DNA of 4,596 nucleotides, from the IMG/VR virus record IMGVR_UViG_2734482571_000008, one strand, 5' to 3'. Under the pieces are notes generated by a model. The model was not told the DNA's origin. It saw nothing but the letters and a program-made list of their open reading frames with translations, and made no database searches. The position numbers and the translations under genes were made by a program. Shown piece by piece: positions 1 through 4,596 of this stretch (position 1 is the first letter of the stretch; every line of letters starts with the position of its first letter). The DNA comes from a virus (lineage: Duplodnaviria; Heunggongvirae; Uroviricota; Caudoviricetes).

Positions 1-753
1 TTTTCTGCTCATTATTAGCTCCTTCTGATGCCATTCTATTTCAGGAAGGAGTGTCCGTTAAACTCAGGCTACCTCAGGTTATTCGCTTCTGGGCATGGGC
101 GGATCAACAAATGATAGACGGTAATGCAGATTGTAACGCTCGCGGCGTTACAAAAAGTGCAATAGATCGCATCACTTTTATGTCTGGTTTTGCTGATGCG
201 TTAATTCAGGTTGGATGGCTGGTCGAAAATGACGGAGGGCTTTCTCTACCTAACTTTGAACGTCATAACGGAAAAAGCTCTAAAAAAAACGGGCGGTTAC
301 AAACGAGCGAGTAACAAAAATACGCGAACTGAAACGAAAAGGTAACGCTGCCAGCGTTACACAAACGGATCAAAAAGCGTTACCAGAGGAAGAGGAAGAG
401 GAAGATCTAAATACTGATCTCCCCCTCGCCAAAAACGAGCGTCTAAAAAATTCGAGCCGGAGGCTATTGAGCTGCCCGATTGGTTGCCGGAAACACTCTG
501 GCATGAGTGGGTCCGGTTCAGACAGGCATTGCGAAAACCGATTCGAACGGAGCAGGGCGCTAACGGGGCGATACGGGAACTGGAAAAATTCCGTCAGCAG
601 GGTTTTACACCTGAGCAGGTGATTCGACACAGCATCGCCAATGAATACCAGGGCCTGTTCGCGCCGAAAGGTGTTCGGCCTGAGACGTTGCTCCGACAGG
701 TTAACACCGTCTCGTTGCCGGACAGTGCGATCCCGCCAGGCTTCAGGGGGTAA
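1..753 (+). pseudogene. Phage replication protein, YdaU-like N-terminal region joined to a DnaT-like C-terminal domain; 5'-partial (starts upstream of window) and split across three reading frames by two apparent 1-nt deletions in poly-A tracts
   Basis: Frame 3 is open from the window edge to a stop at 312-314. Frame 2 is open from 284 through an acidic (GAGGAA)3-encoded linker (VTKIRELKRKGNAASVTQTDQKALPEEEEEEDL...). Frame 1 is open from 418 to a stop at 751-753 and encodes ...ELPDWLPETLWHEW...LLRQVNTVSLPDSAIPPGFRG, which closely matches the C-terminus of E. coli primosomal protein DnaT as I recall it (...PDWQPD...RDVNTVSEPDSQIPPGFRG). The frame switches coincide with A8 (282-289) and A6 (445-450). 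Adding one A at each gives a continuous ORF. The position immediately upstream of a dnaC paralog mirrors the host dnaT-dnaC operon. Confidence 0.6.
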
Positions 754-1196: not shown

Positions 1197-1537
1197 NNNN
1201 NNNNNNNNNNNNNNNNNNNNNNNNNNNNNNNNNNNNNNNNNNNNNNNNNNNNNNNNNNNNNNNNNNNNNNNNNNNNNNNNNNNNNNNNNNNNNNNNNNNN
1301 NNNNNNNNNNNNNNNNNNNNNNNNNNNNNNNNNNNNNNNNNNNNNNNNNNNNNNNNNNNNNNNNNNNNNNNNNNNNNNNNNNNNNNNNNNNNNNNNNNNN
1401 NNNNNNNNNNNNNNNNNNNNNNNNNNNNNNNNNNNNNNNNNNNNNNNNNNNNNNNNNNNNNNNNNNNNNNNNNNNNNNNNNNNNNNNNNNNNNNNNNNNN
1501 NNNNNNNNNNNNNNNNNNNNNNNNNNNNNNNNNNNNN
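1197..1537. other. Run of 341 N: assembly or scaffold gap, or masked sequence
   Basis: Uninterrupted n characters from 1197 to 1537. A DnaC-like protein of about 245 aa starting at 760 would end near 1500, so the gap plausibly hides the 3' end of that gene plus a short intergenic spacer. Confidence 0.95.
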
Positions 1538-2390: not shown

Positions 2391-2537
2391 TTAAATTTAG
2401 CACTGTTAAAAATTTAATCCTTAACCGGAGGGATTTCTGCACCCTCAAATCATCAGGAGACCACCCGAAAGGGCGGGGAGCAGTCACACATCTGTTTCCG
2501 ATAGCCCCGTTCTAATGCTACACTCTTTGATATTTTT

Positions 2538-3224
2538 ATGACCCCAATAAACATATTTATGACAGTTGCTGATTTCAAACGGCCCAAATTGGAGCTCCCA
2601 AACGGGGCAAACAAACTACTACTGCACTCTTGCTGTGCTCCATGTTCCGGTGAGGTGATGGAGGCGCTTCAGGCCTCGGGAATCGACTACACCATCTTTT
2701 TCTACAACCCGAACATTCATCCTCAGAAAGAGTATTTAATTCGTAAGGATGAGAATATTCGCTTTGCTGAACAACACGGCGTGCCGTTTATTGATGCTGA
2801 TTACGACACAGACAACTGGTTTGAACGAGCCAAAGGAATGGAATGGGAGCCCGAACGAGGGATCCGTTGCACCATGTGTTTTGACATGCGTTTTGAGCGG
2901 ACAGCGCTGTACGCCGCTGAAAATGGTTTCAGTGTGATCAGCAGTTCACTGGGCATTTCACGCTGGAAAAATATGCAGCAGGTTAACGACTGTGGGCGGC
3001 GAGCCGTCGCGCATTATCCGGGCATGGTGTACTGGGATTATAACTGGCGCAAGCAGGGCGGCTCGTCCCGTATGATTGAAATCAGCAAGCGCGAAAAATT
3101 CTATCAGCAGGAATATTGTGGCTGTGTGTATTCTCTGCGCGATACCAATCTACACCGCAAATCTCAGGGACGCCCTCTTATCAAAATTGGTCAACTCCAC
3201 TACGGTAAAGAAGAGAAGGAGTGA
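2538..3224 (+). CDS. queH: Epoxyqueuosine reductase QueH (DUF208 family, cobalamin-independent oQ to Q reductase)
   Basis: The translation carries motifs I recognise as QueH hallmarks: [40 protein letters not shown], and later Cys pairs RCTMCFDM and EYCGCVYS, consistent with an Fe-S/metal site. Length 228 aa is typical of the family. The start is uncertain (ATG 2538 or ATG 2559) and neither has a clear SD. Confidence 0.8.
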
Positions 3225-3245
3225 TTTTATGGGGCACCTTTCTGA

Positions 3246-3275
3246 TTGATTTCATATTGGCGAGGTAAGTAGAAT
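3246..3275 (+). promoter_or_regulatory. Putative sigma70 promoter of the mok/hok transcript: -35 TTGATT (3246-3251), 18-bp spacer, -10 TAGAAT (3270-3275); predicted TSS near 3283
   Basis: Hexamers read directly from the sequence. The downstream leader gcgggtgcttgaggctatctgc... resembles the 5' end of plasmid R1 hok mRNA (ggcgcuugaggcuuucugcc) as I recall it. Confidence 0.4.
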
Positions 3276-3324
3276 GACTGCGGGTGCTTGAGGCTATCTG
3301 CTTCAGGCATGAACACCAAAAGGC

Positions 3325-3402
3325 AGATAGAGAAAAGCCCCAGTTAACATTACGCGTCCGGCAAGACGCTTAACATTAATCTGAGGCCAATTTCATGCTT
3401 TG
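3325..3402 (-). ncRNA. sok: Putative Sok-like antisense RNA, complementary to the mok/hok leader; boundaries approximate
   Basis: On the minus strand there is a promoter-like arrangement: -35 TTGCCT (complement of 3433-3438, overlapping the hok SD), 17-bp spacer, -10 TAACCT (complement of 3410-3415), predicted TSS near 3402. The transcript would be antisense to the mok start region and to a leader segment (ccccagttaacattacgcgtccggcaagacgcttaacatta) that resembles the sok target region of R1 hok mRNA. It contains a small hairpin gcgtc/gacgc (3354-3369) flanked by direct repeats of ttaacatta (3344-3352, 3370-3378). Confidence 0.35.
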
Positions 3403-3607
3403 CACATGTAGGTTAGCCTCTTACATGCCGAAAGGCAAGGAGAAGCAGGCTATGAAGCAGCAAAAGGCGATGTTAATCGCCCTGATCGTCATCTGTTTAA
3501 CCGTCATAGTGACGGCACTGGTAACGAGGAAAGACCTCTGTGAGGTACGAATCCGAACCGGCCAGACGGAGGTCGCTGTCTTCGTAGACTACGAATCCAG
3601 GAAGTAA
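3395..3607 (+). CDS. mok: mok-like reading frame (modulator of killing), an in-frame N-terminal extension of hok, 70 aa
   Basis: ATG 3395 opens a frame that runs into hok. The extension MLCTCRLASYMPKGKEKQA resembles the N-terminus of E. coli MokC as recalled (MLNTCR...KVKEKRA-MKQHKAM...). Confidence 0.45.
   Translation: MLCTCRLASYMPKGKEKQAMKQQKAMLIALIVICLTVIVTALVTRKDLCEVRIRTGQTEVAVFVDYESRK
3452..3607 (+). CDS. hok: Hok/Gef-family type I toxin (small membrane-depolarising peptide), 51 aa, HokD/RelF-like
   Basis: SD aaggag (3437-3442), ATG 3452. MKQQKAMLIALIVICLTVIVTALVTRKDLCEVRIRTGQTEVAVFVDYESRK is near-identical over the first ~44 residues to HokD as recalled (MKQQKAMLIALIVICLTVIVTALVTRKDLCEVRIRTGQTEVAVFTAYEPEE), diverging only in the last residues. 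Single transmembrane helix plus conserved Cys and periplasmic tail. Confidence 0.88.
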   Translation: MKQQKAMLIALIVICLTVIVTALVTRKDLCEVRIRTGQTEVAVFVDYESRK

Positions 3608-3615
3608 GAGTGACC

Positions 3616-3643
3616 GGGCGGGGAGCTGATCCCATCCCCGCCC
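3616..3643 (+). other. Perfect 9-bp GC-rich inverted repeat (gggcgggga / tccccgccc, 10-nt loop) immediately 3' of the hok stop; probable structural element of the hok mRNA 3' region
   Basis: The arms are exact reverse complements. No U-run follows, so it is not itself an intrinsic terminator. Confidence 0.45.
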
Positions 3644-3682
3644 ACCTCTGATGTGTCAGGCATCCTCAACGCACCCGCACTT

Positions 3683-3730
3683 AACCCGCCCATCGCTGTG
3701 ATCTCTCAGCGTTTCGGCGGGTTTTTTGTT
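3683..3730 (+). terminator. Rho-independent terminator for the mok/hok transcript
   Basis: Outer stem aacccgcc (3683-3690) pairs with ggcgggtt (3716-3723) and encloses an inner stem cgctg/cagcg (3694-3698 / 3707-3711). A T6 run (3722-3727) follows. The opposite strand has no U-tract, so it is orientation-specific. Confidence 0.65.
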
Positions 3731-3747: not shown

Positions 3748-3775
3748 TTGATTCGCGCACCTTCGCAGATAGAAT
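3748..3775 (+). promoter_or_regulatory. Putative sigma70 promoter for the downstream genes: -35 TTGATT (3748-3753), 16-bp spacer, -10 TAGAAT (3770-3775)
   Basis: Hexamers read directly. It lies just after the hok terminator and about 80 nt upstream of the ATG at 3857. It uses the same -35 and -10 hexamers as the hok promoter at 3246-3275. Confidence 0.35.
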
Positions 3776-3856
3776 CGACTCACTTAAGTAGCGCGCAGGG
3801 AGAAGAGGGATGGACCCCGAACAGGGGAGAGCTATTTATCTGGAAGGATTCTGAAG

Positions 3857-4144
3857 ATGAAAATCGAAGAATTGCGTGAAATTTTTAGTGAAAATGGCCT
3901 CTATGCTGTGCGCGTTGAGAATGGAGCGATTGTCAGCCATTGCCGCATTAGATGTTTGCAATCTCAACAAAGGAAGAGCGGTGCTGTGTTATTTTATTTT
4001 TGTAATGGACTTCTGACGGACGGTTTTATTTTGCGTGAGGACGAATTTGTCACATCATTACGGGTTTTGAAAGAGATTGGTTTTAAGGCTGGTTTTCTGC
4101 TTTTGCTGAAGAATAAACTCATCTACAATCTTGAGCAGGATTGA
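3857..4144 (+). CDS. Hypothetical protein, 95 aa; low-GC moron-like ORF, positionally equivalent to rem downstream of hokD in Qin (positional inference only)
   Basis: SD ggaagga (3842-3848), ATG 3857, stop TGA 4142-4144. GC content is about 38% in the first 60 nt by my count, visibly lower than neighbouring genes. No recognisable motif. Confidence 0.45.
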   Translation: MKIEELREIFSENGLYAVRVENGAIVSHCRIRCLQSQQRKSGAVLFYFCNGLLTDGFILREDEFVTSLRVLKEIGFKAGFLLLLKNKLIYNLEQD

Positions 4145-4182: not shown

Positions 4183-4536
4183 ATGGCACATATACAACTG
4201 GTCAAACAAACCTCTTCCGGATTACTTCTCCCGGCGACGCCGGAGAGTTGCGATTTTCTGCATCAAATCAAAATAGGTGAGTGGATACACGCAGACTTTA
4301 AGCGTGTGTGTAACTACGCATTCCACAAGCGTTTTTTCAAACTCCTGCAACTGGGTTTCGATTACTGGACTCCGGTCGGTGGGGCGATCACGCCTCGCGA
4401 ACGAAAACTGGTGTCCGGTTTCGTTGATTACCTGTGTGAATCAGTAGGCCGGGAACATACGCCAGCTCTGAGCGAAGCCGCAGAGCAATTGAGGTGTACT
4501 GGCAATAGCGGACACTACCATTTGTTCTTTTTTTAA
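4183..4536 (+). CDS. Hypothetical lambdoid-phage protein, about 117 aa as written; possibly the N-terminal part of a longer gene truncated at a T7 run
   Basis: SD ggag (4172-4175), ATG 4183 (MAHIQLVKQTSSGLLLPATPESCDFLHQIKIGEWIHADFKRVCNYAFHKRFF...). The track's TTG start at 4141 overlaps the previous gene and lacks an SD. The stop TAA (4534-4536) is formed at the end of T7 (4528-4534), and the -1 frame is open from 4509 to the window end. Confidence 0.5.
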   Translation: MAHIQLVKQTSSGLLLPATPESCDFLHQIKIGEWIHADFKRVCNYAFHKRFFKLLQLGFDYWTPVGGAITPRERKLVSGFVDYLCESVGREHTPALSEAAEQLRCTGNSGHYHLFFF

Positions 4537-4596
4537 GCAGCCATCTGATGATATTTTTCCCTGAAGGCTGCCGGGGAGATATTCCCCAGACGAGAG

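What the first reader, a model, noticed from the sequence alone, without database searches (positions are those of the whole stretch)
3246..3730. Complete hok/mok/sok type I toxin-antitoxin locus with a divergent Hok C-terminus
All canonical parts are visible: promoter, leader resembling R1 hok mRNA, in-frame mok extension, hok ORF with SD, antisense promoter on the minus strand overlapping the SD, GC hairpin and terminator. The toxin is near-identical to HokD over the transmembrane and core region but ends ...AVFVDYESRK instead of ...AVFTAYEPEE. In Qin the equivalent hokD sits next to relBE, whereas here the upstream neighbour is queH. That points to modular exchange of cargo around a conserved hok core. 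A hok locus inside a prophage can act as an addiction or abortive-infection element.
Basis: partly seen in the sequence, partly recalled or inferred. Interest (0 to 1): 0.5.

Follow-up and report, generated by a model that had tools for sequence, protein, structure and literature searches.

The report
Intact prophage hok/sok toxin-antitoxin cassette
This is an ordinary, already annotated hok/mok/sok type I toxin-antitoxin cassette of the hokW kind, sitting in a decayed lambda-like prophage of Shigella or E. coli; every RNA control element is present, and its "divergent" toxin tail is the known HokW form with one extra amino-acid change.

Summary
Window 3282-3457 matches the Rfam hok/sok leader model at 117 bits (threshold 59). 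The 51-aa ORF at 3452-3607 matches Pfam Hok/Gef at 81 bits. An in-frame 70-codon mok starts at 3395.

The minus strand carries the sok promoter (TTGCCT-17-TAACCT) and a 71-nt Sok-like RNA (3403 to 3333). The 5' end (3281-3293) pairs with 3664-3677 (tac/fbi). A 9-bp GC hairpin (3616-3643) and a terminator (3683-3727) follow.

The locus is not new. The same DNA is annotated "hokD" beside queH in two complete E. coli genomes, and the exact protein occurs in over 3000 assembly blocks. The C-terminus VDYESRK is the HokW type (933W/Sp5: VDYESEK, 98% identity), and hokW-sokW has been characterised experimentally. The queH-hok pairing is common (726 E. coli records). K-12 hokD is the truncated outlier.

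Three features are specific to this allele: a 10-bp deletion in the hok promoter spacer, seven substitutions in the Sok 5' tail, and a 23-nt insertion in the terminator loop. Whether hok is still expressed here is untested. Interest is low.

The parts
3246..3275 (+). Putative hok promoter: -35 TTGATT (3246-3251), 18-bp spacer, -10 TAGAAT (3270-3275). Predicted transcription start at G3282/G3283.
   Evidence: Found by the consensus scan. The -10 box and start region are identical in relatives. Relatives use TTGGCG or TTTGCG at 17 bp. This allele has a 10-bp deletion in the spacer, so a different hexamer now takes the -35 position. Activity is not tested.
3281..3293 (+). tac element at the 5' end of hok mRNA. 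It pairs with fbi in the full-length RNA and with ucb in the truncated RNA. It also forms the 5' metastable hairpin, 3284-3294 with 3300-3310.
   Evidence: MFE folds, the duplex shuffle test, and Rfam model positions 1-10.
3336..3341 (+). ucb, the anti-SD of mok (AGCCCC). GCC 3337-3339 pairs with GGC 3385-3387 in the full-length fold. The element pairs with tac (3283-3288) in the open fold.
   Evidence: and the Rfam consensus structure. The pairing pattern is the same as R1 positions 1-6 with 70-75, as described in PMC9841398.
3333..3403 (-). Sok antisense RNA, about 71 nt. It has a 15-nt single-stranded 5' tail (3403 to 3389), a long hairpin (3388 to 3336) and a U-tract.
   Evidence: Folds to -28.6 kcal/mol with the same architecture as the annotated sokW and the R1-type Sok. 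Coordinates were transferred from the sokW annotation in AF125520. Expression is not tested.
3410..3438 (-). sok promoter: -35 TTGCCT (3438-3433), 17-bp spacer, -10 TAACCT (3415-3410).
   Evidence: The hexamers are identical to 933W/Sp5. The primers used to make the promoter-less sokW mutant in PMC8621323 (YO-421/422) appear to replace this hexamer (AGGTTA on the + strand); this is my inference from the primer sequences. The R1-type has TTGCGC-17-TATCCT. The site falls below the threshold of the generic consensus scan.
3383..3420 (+). Hairpin formed by mok SD (GAGGC 3383-3387) and dcb (GCCUC 3416-3420). Its loop (3398-3404) is the presumed Sok recognition loop and contains UUUG.
   Evidence: The hairpin forms spontaneously once tac/ucb is enforced. 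It corresponds to the Rfam consensus hairpin.
3395..3607 (+). mok reading frame: 70 codons, in frame with hok and sharing its stop codon.
   Evidence: ORF list. The exact 70-aa product is present on at least 1000 contigs. Phage 933W annotates the equivalent as mokW.
3452..3607 (+). hok toxin gene, 51 aa, preceded by SD AAGGAG at 3437-3442. The conserved residues Cys15, Cys30 and Tyr47 are retained.
   Evidence: PF01848 at 81 bits. Identity is 98% to HokW, 90% to HokD and 45% to R1-type Hok. RefSeq WP_014532198.1.
3616..3643 (+). GC hairpin after the stop codon: GGGCGGGGA and TCCCCGCCC, 9 bp, 10-nt loop. It is the presumed 3' end protector of the truncated, active mRNA.
   Evidence: MFE fold. 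The equivalent R1 hairpin is required for the truncated mRNA (G345A and C358A mutants, PMC9841398). The 3619 C/T polymorphism in other genomes preserves pairing as a G-U wobble.
3664..3677 (+). fbi element (CCTCAACGCACCCG), complementary to tac with a one-nucleotide bulge.
   Evidence: The sequence is identical in O18, K-12 and 933W.
3683..3727 (+). Intrinsic-terminator-like structure: outer stem 3683-3690 with 3716-3723, inner stem 3694-3698 with 3707-3711, T-run 3722-3727. It contains an allele-specific 23-nt insertion (about 3690-3712) in what is a 4-nt loop in relatives.
   Evidence: Fold and alignments. The simple terminator scan misses it because the loop is longer than 8 nt.

Best explanation
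Window 3246-3727 is a structurally intact hok/mok/sok type I toxin-antitoxin cassette of the hokW subtype. It lies in the early-region 'moron' slot of a lambdoid prophage, between queH and rem. In this genome the prophage is reduced to a 4.4-kb remnant bracketed by IS600.

Proposed mechanism, by homology to R1 hok/sok and Sp5 hokW-sokW (all steps inferred):
1. A weak constitutive promoter makes a full-length hok mRNA. This RNA is inert because its 5' tac element pairs with the 3' fbi element, and ucb masks the mok SD.
2. Slow 3' exonucleolytic trimming back to the GC hairpin removes fbi.
3. The leader then refolds into tac/ucb plus SDmok/dcb, which exposes the mok SD and the Sok target loop.
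4. The abundant but unstable Sok RNA, made from the minus-strand promoter, pairs with this region. The duplex is cut by RNase III, so Mok is not translated and neither is the coupled Hok.
5. If Sok synthesis stops (loss of the element, host transcription shut-off, or prophage induction), the stable truncated mRNA is translated. The 51-aa Hok inserts into the inner membrane and depolarises it.

What is shown here is only the presence and mutual complementarity of every element. Transcription, processing, toxicity and neutralisation are inferred.
For: - Rfam RF01794 matches end to end at 117 bits.
- PF01848 scores 81 bits.
- mok is in frame, with its own SD.
- tac/fbi forms 13 bp in the MFE fold of the full-length RNA. 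When fbi is removed, the 5' end switches to a local hairpin. The duplex is significant against shuffles, 7 of 2000.
- With tac/ucb enforced, the SDmok/dcb hairpin forms by itself, at a cost of 4.8 kcal/mol over the MFE.
- The Sok fold and promoter hexamers are the same as in sokW.
- The sokW -10 box appears to be the hexamer replaced in the promoter-less mutant, judging from the primer sequences, and HokW/sokW were shown to be toxin and antitoxin, partly dependent on RNase III and Hfq (PMC8621323).
- Hok is 98% identical to HokW, with all family-invariant residues kept.
- Within the hok ORF, the differences from 933W are four synonymous changes plus the one E50R codon.
- The exact locus is annotated as a Hok toxin in RefSeq.
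Against: - No expression or toxicity data exist for this allele.
- A 10-bp deletion removes the -35 hexamer used by relatives. TTGATT at a suboptimal 18-bp spacing takes its place.
- The terminator loop carries a 23-nt insertion of unknown effect.
- Thermodynamic folding of the truncated RNA prefers the metastable 5' hairpin over the tac/ucb fold by 4.8 kcal/mol.
- Chromosomal hok loci tested earlier did not mediate post-segregational killing (cited in bioRxiv 10.1101/2025.08.07.668861).
- The element sits in a heavily degraded, IS-bracketed prophage remnant.
Confidence: 0.9

Rival explanations
1. A transcriptionally attenuated or silent relic. All the parts look intact, but the 10-bp promoter-spacer deletion, the altered 3' end, or both leave hok mRNA too scarce or wrongly processed. 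The cassette is then carried passively in a dying prophage.
For: - The promoter deletion is specific to this Shigella-type allele.
- The cassette lies in an IS600-bracketed 4.4-kb remnant with a truncated DUF1367 gene.
- In sister genomes the same allele is broken by an IS21-family insertion in the GC hairpin, or altered by a 28-nt tandem duplication in the leader. Loss is therefore tolerated.
- Identity across thousands of assemblies can reflect recent clonality rather than selection.
- K-12 hokA, hokC, hokD and hokE are regarded as inactivated (PMC12214031).
Against: - A replacement -35 hexamer (TTGATT, 4 of 6) lies at a usable 18-bp spacing and passes the consensus scan.
- The -10 box, start site, tac, ucb, both SDs, dcb, fbi, the ORF and the sok promoter are all unbroken.
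- The GC hairpin is a perfect 9-bp stem.
Confidence: 0.3
2. A phage-release helper, as shown for hokW-sokW in Sp5. On SOS induction Sok disappears, Hok is made before holin and endolysin, and lysis and progeny release are accelerated.
For: It is the closest characterised homologue: 98% protein and 92% DNA identity. PMC8621323 reports that mitomycin C triggered loss of sokW, RecA-dependent HokW production, and a two-fold lower phage yield without the locus.
Against: - In the genome that matches the window over its whole length, the prophage is cut down to early-region genes between two IS600 copies, with no lysis or morphogenesis genes nearby (L009). There is no phage left to release.
- In FDAARGOS_943 the prophage is larger but full of IS elements and pseudogenes.
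- The Sok 5' tail differs from sokW at 7 positions.
Confidence: 0.07
3. An orthologue of K-12 hokD (relF), as the RefSeq product name implies. That would make it the distal gene of a relBE-type operon, with no antisense control of its own.
For: RefSeq names the protein HokD. It is 90% identical to HokD. It occupies the same slot upstream of rem in a Qin-like prophage.
Against: - K-12 hokD shares nothing upstream of the hok SD.
- The window has the full promoter, leader, mok and sok, and no relBE.
- The C-terminus is of the HokW type.
Confidence: 0.03

Closest known systems
hokW-mokW-sokW of Stx2 phages 933W / Sakai prophage 5 (AF125520; Takada et al. 2021, PMC8621323)
   Same: 92% DNA identity over 3259-3686. 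Hok is 50/51 identical, including the VDYES-K tail. mok is in frame. The sok promoter hexamers, Sok hairpin, tac and fbi are identical. Both sit in lambdoid phage early regions.
   Different: E50R in Hok. Seven substitutions in the Sok 5' tail and target loop, 3388-3402. The GC hairpin is longer. The sequences upstream of the -10 box and downstream of fbi are unrelated. The host element here is a non-inducible remnant.
queH-linked 'hokD' loci of E. coli lambdoid prophages (for example strain O18, NZ_CP007275)
   Same: The same queH-hok arrangement, 94% identity over 2488-3689. The leader, mok, sok and fbi are all complete. The compact form of the terminator has the same stem.
   Different: They encode the HokD-type tail TAYEPEE. 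They keep the TTGGCG-17-TAGAAT promoter without the 10-bp deletion. They lack the 23-nt insertion in the terminator loop, and their downstream genes differ.
hokD (relF) of cryptic prophage Qin, E. coli K-12
   Same: Hok residues 1-44 are identical. The 3' UTR with GC hairpin, fbi and terminator stem is homologous. The downstream neighbour is rem.
   Different: K-12 has no hok promoter, leader, mok or sok, because relBE abuts the hok SD. Its tail is TAYEPEE.
hok/sok (parB) of plasmid R1 and IncF relatives (100% copy in NC_004998.1)
   Same: The order of elements is the same: tac, metastable hairpin, ucb, sokT, SDmok, dcb, sok promoter, hok, GC hairpin, fbi, terminator (PMC9841398). The Hok tail ends YESGK.
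   Different: Only 45% protein identity. R1 mok is in a different frame from hok (seen directly in the R1-type sequence used), whereas here mok is an N-terminal extension of Hok. The replicon is a plasmid, not a prophage.

Membership tests
[quoted passage not shown] | Small (about 50 aa) Hok/Gef membrane toxin with an N-terminal hydrophobic helix and the conserved Cys and Tyr positions | tested here: met
   PF01848 at 81.1 bits against a cut-off of 22, covering profile positions 1-42 of 42. C15, C30, Y47 and all 21 invariant columns are kept.
[quoted passage not shown] | Overlapping mok reading frame with its own SD upstream of hok | tested here: met
   ATG at 3395, 70 codons, SD GAGG at 3383-3386. 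The same product is annotated mokW in 933W. Translational coupling itself cannot be tested here.
[quoted passage not shown] | Conserved hok mRNA leader fold: tac-stem with ucb, Sok-target hairpin, SDmok/dcb hairpin | tested here: met
   Rfam RF01794 covariance model at 117 bits against a gathering score of 59, full length, with only a few non-canonical pairs.
[quoted passage not shown] | Long-range 5'-3' tac/fbi pairing that locks the full-length mRNA | tested here: met
   3281-3293 pairs with 3664-3677 in the MFE fold. The duplex is -22.6 kcal/mol and is reached by 7 of 2000 shuffles.
[quoted passage not shown] | cis-encoded antisense Sok RNA with its own promoter, a single-stranded 5' tail and a terminator hairpin, complementary to the mok translation-initiation region | tested here: met
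   At sequence level only. The promoter is TTGCCT-17-TAACCT, and a 71-nt RNA folds like sokW and R1 Sok. Transcription was not observed.
[quoted passage not shown] | GC-rich 3' hairpin that halts exonucleolytic trimming and defines the active truncated mRNA | tested here: met
   A 9-bp stem at 3616-3643 lies between the stop codon and fbi, in the same position as R1 nucleotides 342-361 (PMC9841398). The processing itself cannot be tested.
[quoted passage not shown] | Hok expression is toxic, and Sok neutralises it through RNase III | not testable with these tools
   Shown for the 98%-identical HokW/sokW (PMC8621323), not for this allele.
hokW-sokW subtype (933W/Sp5) | HokW-type toxin sequence (…AVFVDYES-K) | tested here: met
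   50 of 51 residues are identical. The only change is E50R.
hokW-sokW subtype (933W/Sp5) | Same Sok recognition sequence, so that the two could cross-neutralise | tested here: not met
   Seven substitutions at 3388-3402, in the Sok 5' tail and target loop. Cross-talk with sokW is therefore doubtful.
HokD (RelF) of Qin | relBE-hokD arrangement without its own leader, mok or sok, and the tail TAYEPEE | tested here: not met
   Homology to K-12 begins at 3438. The upstream gene is queH. The tail is VDYESRK. Only the position upstream of rem is shared.

The most novel reading that the evidence does not exclude
The variable C-terminal codons may be shaped at the RNA level, as a TadA A-to-I editing site.

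Tyr47 (UAC, 3590-3592) sits in CUACGAA (3589-3595). This heptamer is identical to the tRNA-Arg(ACG) anticodon loop, as I recall that loop sequence. K-12 hokD has the heptamer UUACGAA, a 6-of-7 match differing in the first base, and is reported to be edited at only 6% at this Tyr (PMC5630033, PMC12214031).

In 933W hokW the heptamer is predicted to form a true 7-nt loop closed by the stem UAGA/UCUG. HokW-type alleles could therefore be efficient Y47C editing substrates. Editing would give a second periplasmic Cys to bond with Cys30 and raise toxicity.

The two Shigella-specific codon changes (TCT to TCC and GAG to AGG) weaken that closing stem, and so could lower editing.
Probability: 0.15. Interest if true: 0.4.

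Novelty: already known. Interest (0 to 1): 0.1.

Why it matters
It matters little beyond annotation. The result shows that RefSeq's "HokD" label on this widespread Shigella/E. coli locus hides a complete hokW-type cassette. The mok frame and the Sok RNA are not annotated in the E. coli genome record examined here.

It also shows that K-12 hokD is a poor reference for the clade, because it lacks all of the regulatory RNA.

The allele-specific changes give a natural set of variants for asking how much alteration a hok cassette tolerates. They are the promoter-spacer deletion, the divergent Sok tail and the enlarged terminator loop. Sister genomes add an IS insertion in the GC hairpin and a leader duplication.

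The editing-site idea would link toxin tail variation to TadA recoding, but it is speculative.

Tried and rejected
1. An exact-pattern scan of species-representative genomes for the terminator-loop insertion found nothing. The second scan explained why: the representative Shigella flexneri copies carry a 3697 T>C SNP inside the pattern. The zero therefore says nothing about rarity.

2. The generic promoter scan does not flag the sok promoter, because TAACCT matches only 3 of 6 positions. I accepted the promoter instead on its identity to the sokW hexamers. I also read the primers for the promoter-less sokW mutant as replacing this -10 hexamer, which is my inference from their sequences.

3. 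The generic terminator scan found no terminators. The hok terminator has a 25-nt interior because of the insertion, and the GC hairpin has no T-run. Both were identified by folding.

4. My first attempt to enforce the SDmok/dcb pairs was off by one base and gave a spuriously poor energy of -124.4. The fold with only tac/ucb enforced shows the correct hairpin, 3383-3387 with 3416-3420.

5. In one search the coordinates I used for the O18 control were wrong, and the R1-type duplex search found an alternative site. Only the window and 933W values are used.

6. I considered a covariation test of tac/fbi across the loci. I rejected it because those loci were selected by an exact tac match, so tac cannot vary among them.

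7. NCBIfam gives only sub-threshold hits: Hok subfamily at 55 bits against a cut-off of 73, and HokA at 39 against 89. The HokD name must come from another naming rule.
Full report
**What is in the window.**
- The 4596-bp window is a piece of a lambdoid prophage early region.
- In order, it holds: the C-terminal part of a replication-initiator-like ORF; a DnaC/IstB-like ATPase gene interrupted by a masked N-run (1197-1537); a DUF977 gene (1554-1976); a zinc-ribbon ORF; queH (2538-3224, PF02677 at 220 bits); the hok locus; a Rem-family gene (3857-4144); and a truncated DUF1367 gene.
- Both ends of the window (1-76 and 4490-4596) are IS600 termini.
- The window is 100% identical over its whole length to one NCBI chromosome (L009, GCA_013943745.2). 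There the segment is a 4.4-kb remnant between two IS600 copies, next to an integrase fragment and ordinary chromosomal genes.

**Checking the observation.**
- The leader 3282-3457 matches the Rfam hok/sok model RF01794 from the first to the last model position, at 117 bits (gathering score 59, E=4e-27).
- The 51-codon ORF at 3452-3607 matches Pfam Hok/Gef at 81 bits.
- mok begins at ATG 3395, in frame with hok, behind a GAGG SD at 3383-3386.
- The promoter-like site TTGATT-18-TAGAAT at 3246-3275 places the start at G3282/3283. This corresponds to position 1 of both the Rfam model and the R1 mRNA.
- On the minus strand, TTGCCT (3438-3433), a 17-bp spacer and TAACCT (3415-3410) precede a 71-nt RNA (3403 to 3333). 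That RNA folds as a 15-nt free 5' tail plus a long hairpin and a U-tract. The annotated sokW of phage 933W and the R1-type Sok fold the same way.
- After the stop codon come a perfect 9-bp GC hairpin (3616-3643), the fbi box (3664-3677) and a terminator-like structure (3683-3727).

**RNA switch elements.**
- Folding the predicted full-length mRNA (3281-3729) gives an MFE structure in which 3281-3293 pairs with 3664-3677: 13 bp with one bulge, the tac/fbi lock. In the same structure GCC 3337-3339 (ucb) pairs with GGC 3385-3387 across the mok SD.
- The tac/fbi duplex is -22.6 kcal/mol. Only 7 of 2000 dinucleotide-preserving shuffles of the 3' UTR reach that value.
- Removing fbi makes the 5' end fold locally, 3284-3294 with 3300-3310. 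This is the "metastable" hairpin.
- Enforcing the tac/ucb pairs (3283-3288 with 3336-3341, the same pattern as R1 positions 1-6 with 70-75) costs 4.8 kcal/mol over the MFE. The SDmok/dcb hairpin (3383-3387 with 3416-3420) then forms on its own.
- These elements and their roles are those described for R1 hok/sok (PMC9841398).
- That paper also shows that the R1 GC hairpin is needed for the truncated, active mRNA. The hairpin lies in the same position here.
- The plasmid hok sequence I used as reference is 100% identical to IncF plasmids such as NC_004998.1.

**How known is it?**
- The 581-bp region is 100% identical in two complete E. coli chromosomes (FDAARGOS_943 and FDAARGOS_944). There it is annotated "hokD, type I toxin-antitoxin system toxin HokD" (WP_014532198.1) beside QueH, inside an IS-riddled lambdoid prophage.
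- The exact 51-aa protein and the exact 70-aa Mok are each on at least 1000 contigs. The sources name them under Shigella sonnei, S. flexneri and "MULTISPECIES Enterobacteriaceae". The index lists the toxin in 3093 collection blocks.
- In all ten neighbourhoods shown for the exact toxin, queH lies immediately upstream.
- Phage 933W carries annotated hokW, mokW and sokW at 92% DNA identity.
- The identical Sp5 locus has been shown experimentally to be a type I TA (PMC8621323). HokW is toxic. sokW neutralises it, with partial dependence on RNase III and Hfq. Prophage induction depletes sokW and lets HokW accelerate lysis.
- A recent survey found hok in almost 80% of Enterobacteriaceae genomes and enriched in prophages (bioRxiv 10.1101/2025.08.07.668861).

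**The "divergent C-terminus".**
- Against K-12 HokD the tail differs at five positions: T45V, A46D, P49S, E50R and E51K. Against HokW of 933W it differs only by E50R, which is 98% identity.
- The R1-type Hok ends YESGK, so "YES-K" is a common family ending.
- Other members with the same first 44 residues end TAYESER or TAYEPEE. The tail is a variable spot, not a peculiarity of this locus.

**Context and modularity.**
- The queH-hok pairing is common. 726 E. coli records cover at least 80% of a query that begins inside queH, and the listed ones are annotated QueH + HokD.
- K-12 hokD is the unusual copy. Its homology begins at the hok SD (3438), with relBE in place of the promoter, leader, mok and sok.
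- Downstream, the window is syntenic with Qin. The next gene is a Rem homologue (68% aa identity), and the spacer before it is conserved.
- Homology to 933W is confined to 3259-3686, that is, from the -10 box to fbi.

**What is particular to this allele.** Differences from O18 and 933W cluster in three places:
- 3388-3402: seven substitutions in the Sok 5' tail, the target loop and the first mok codons.
- 3584-3602: the C-terminal codons.
- 3610-3641: the GC hairpin, which is 7 nt longer but still perfectly paired.

tac, ucb, the SDs, dcb, the sok promoter hexamers and fbi are unchanged.

Two further changes are shared by all copies of this allele that I inspected:
- A 10-bp deletion in the hok promoter spacer. 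The TTGGCG-17-TAGAAT of relatives is replaced by TTGATT-18-TAGAAT.
- A 23-nt insertion, itself a small hairpin, in the loop of the terminator.

Neither change clearly destroys function, but both leave expression uncertain.

**Signs of decay in sister genomes (same protein).**
- An IS21-family element is inserted in the 3' arm of the GC hairpin, with a 4-bp overlap at 3638-3641. It separates hok from fbi (L008 and L012).
- One genome has a 28-nt tandem duplication in the tac/metastable-hairpin region (L010).
- A 3619 C>T polymorphism keeps the hairpin paired as a G-U wobble.

**Conclusion.**
- The locus is a structurally complete hokW-type hok/mok/sok cassette, already annotated at the protein level. 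It belongs to a family whose mechanism is textbook knowledge.
- I put the probability of that identification at about 0.9, and the probability that this allele is still expression-competent at about 0.6-0.7.
- The main rival is a silent relic.
- The phage-release function shown for Sp5 cannot apply in the matching genome, because the prophage has lost its late genes.
- Interest is low.

**One speculative lead.** Tyr47 (UAC) lies in CUACGAA, which as I recall it is identical to the tRNA-Arg anticodon loop recognised by TadA. TadA is reported to edit this Tyr in K-12 hokC, hokD and hokE at 6-40% (PMC5630033, PMC12214031). In 933W the heptamer is predicted to be a 7-nt loop on a 4-bp stem. The two Shigella-specific codon changes weaken that stem.

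Noticed in passing
window 3282-3457 (+): The Rfam family named 'sok antitoxin' (RF01794, 157 positions) matches the hok-sense strand from tac to the hok AUG. In effect it models the hok mRNA leader, not the roughly 70-nt antisense Sok RNA. A strand-aware annotation pipeline would place 'sok' on the wrong strand.
   Followed up: partly
window 1-76 and 4490-4596: Both window ends are IS600 termini, 100% identical to the IS3-like IS600 copies in L001. The prophage segment between them is a 4.4-kb remnant. The DUF1367 gene is cut at 4489.
   Followed up: yes
L008 and L012, equivalent to window 3638-3641: In other genomes with the identical Hok protein, an IS21-family element (in L008 together with an IS110-family element) is inserted in the 3' arm of the GC hairpin after the stop codon. 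The insertion has a 4-bp overlap and separates hok from fbi. This resembles the IS insertions next to K-12 hokA, hokC and hokE.
   Followed up: partly
L010 3820-3850, equivalent to window 3294-3308: One genome carries two extra tandem copies of a 14-nt unit (GCTTCAGGCTATCT) inside the tac/metastable-hairpin region of the hok leader.
   Followed up: no
window 3589-3595: The Tyr47 codon lies in CTACGAA, which as I recall it is identical to the tRNA-Arg(ACG) anticodon heptaloop. K-12 hokD has TTACGAA at this position. TadA editing of this Tyr is reported for hokC, hokD and hokE. The local stem predicted in 933W (UAGA/UCUG) is weakened here by TCC AGG. A second TACG, out of frame, is at 3546-3549.
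   Followed up: partly
window 3388-3402: Seven of the roughly 40 differences from O18 and 933W fall in 15 nt, covering the Sok 5' tail, the target loop and mok codons 1-3. This suggests a Sok specificity distinct from sokW, which may limit cross-talk among the 1-9 hok copies found per genome.
   Followed up: partly
window 3748-3775: A second promoter-like site has the same two hexamers as the hok promoter (TTGATT-16-TAGAAT). It lies upstream of the rem-like gene. The leader at 3783-3856 is about 90% conserved with the hokD-rem spacer of K-12 Qin. No Rfam family matches it.
   Followed up: partly
window 2538-3224: An epoxyqueuosine reductase gene (queH) is carried as prophage cargo directly upstream of hok. 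RefSeq starts it 21 nt later, giving 221 aa instead of 228. This queH-hok pair recurs in hundreds of E. coli prophages.
   Followed up: partly
window 1197-1537: A run of 341 N masks the middle of the DnaC/IstB-like (ydaV-type) gene. The ORF listed across it (760-1593) is an artefact of the mask.
   Followed up: no
window 3619 and 3697: Other carriers of the allele show two polymorphisms. 3619 C>T is in the GC hairpin and keeps pairing as a G-U wobble. 3697 T>C is in the inner stem of the terminator-loop insertion and breaks a U-A pair.
   Followed up: partly
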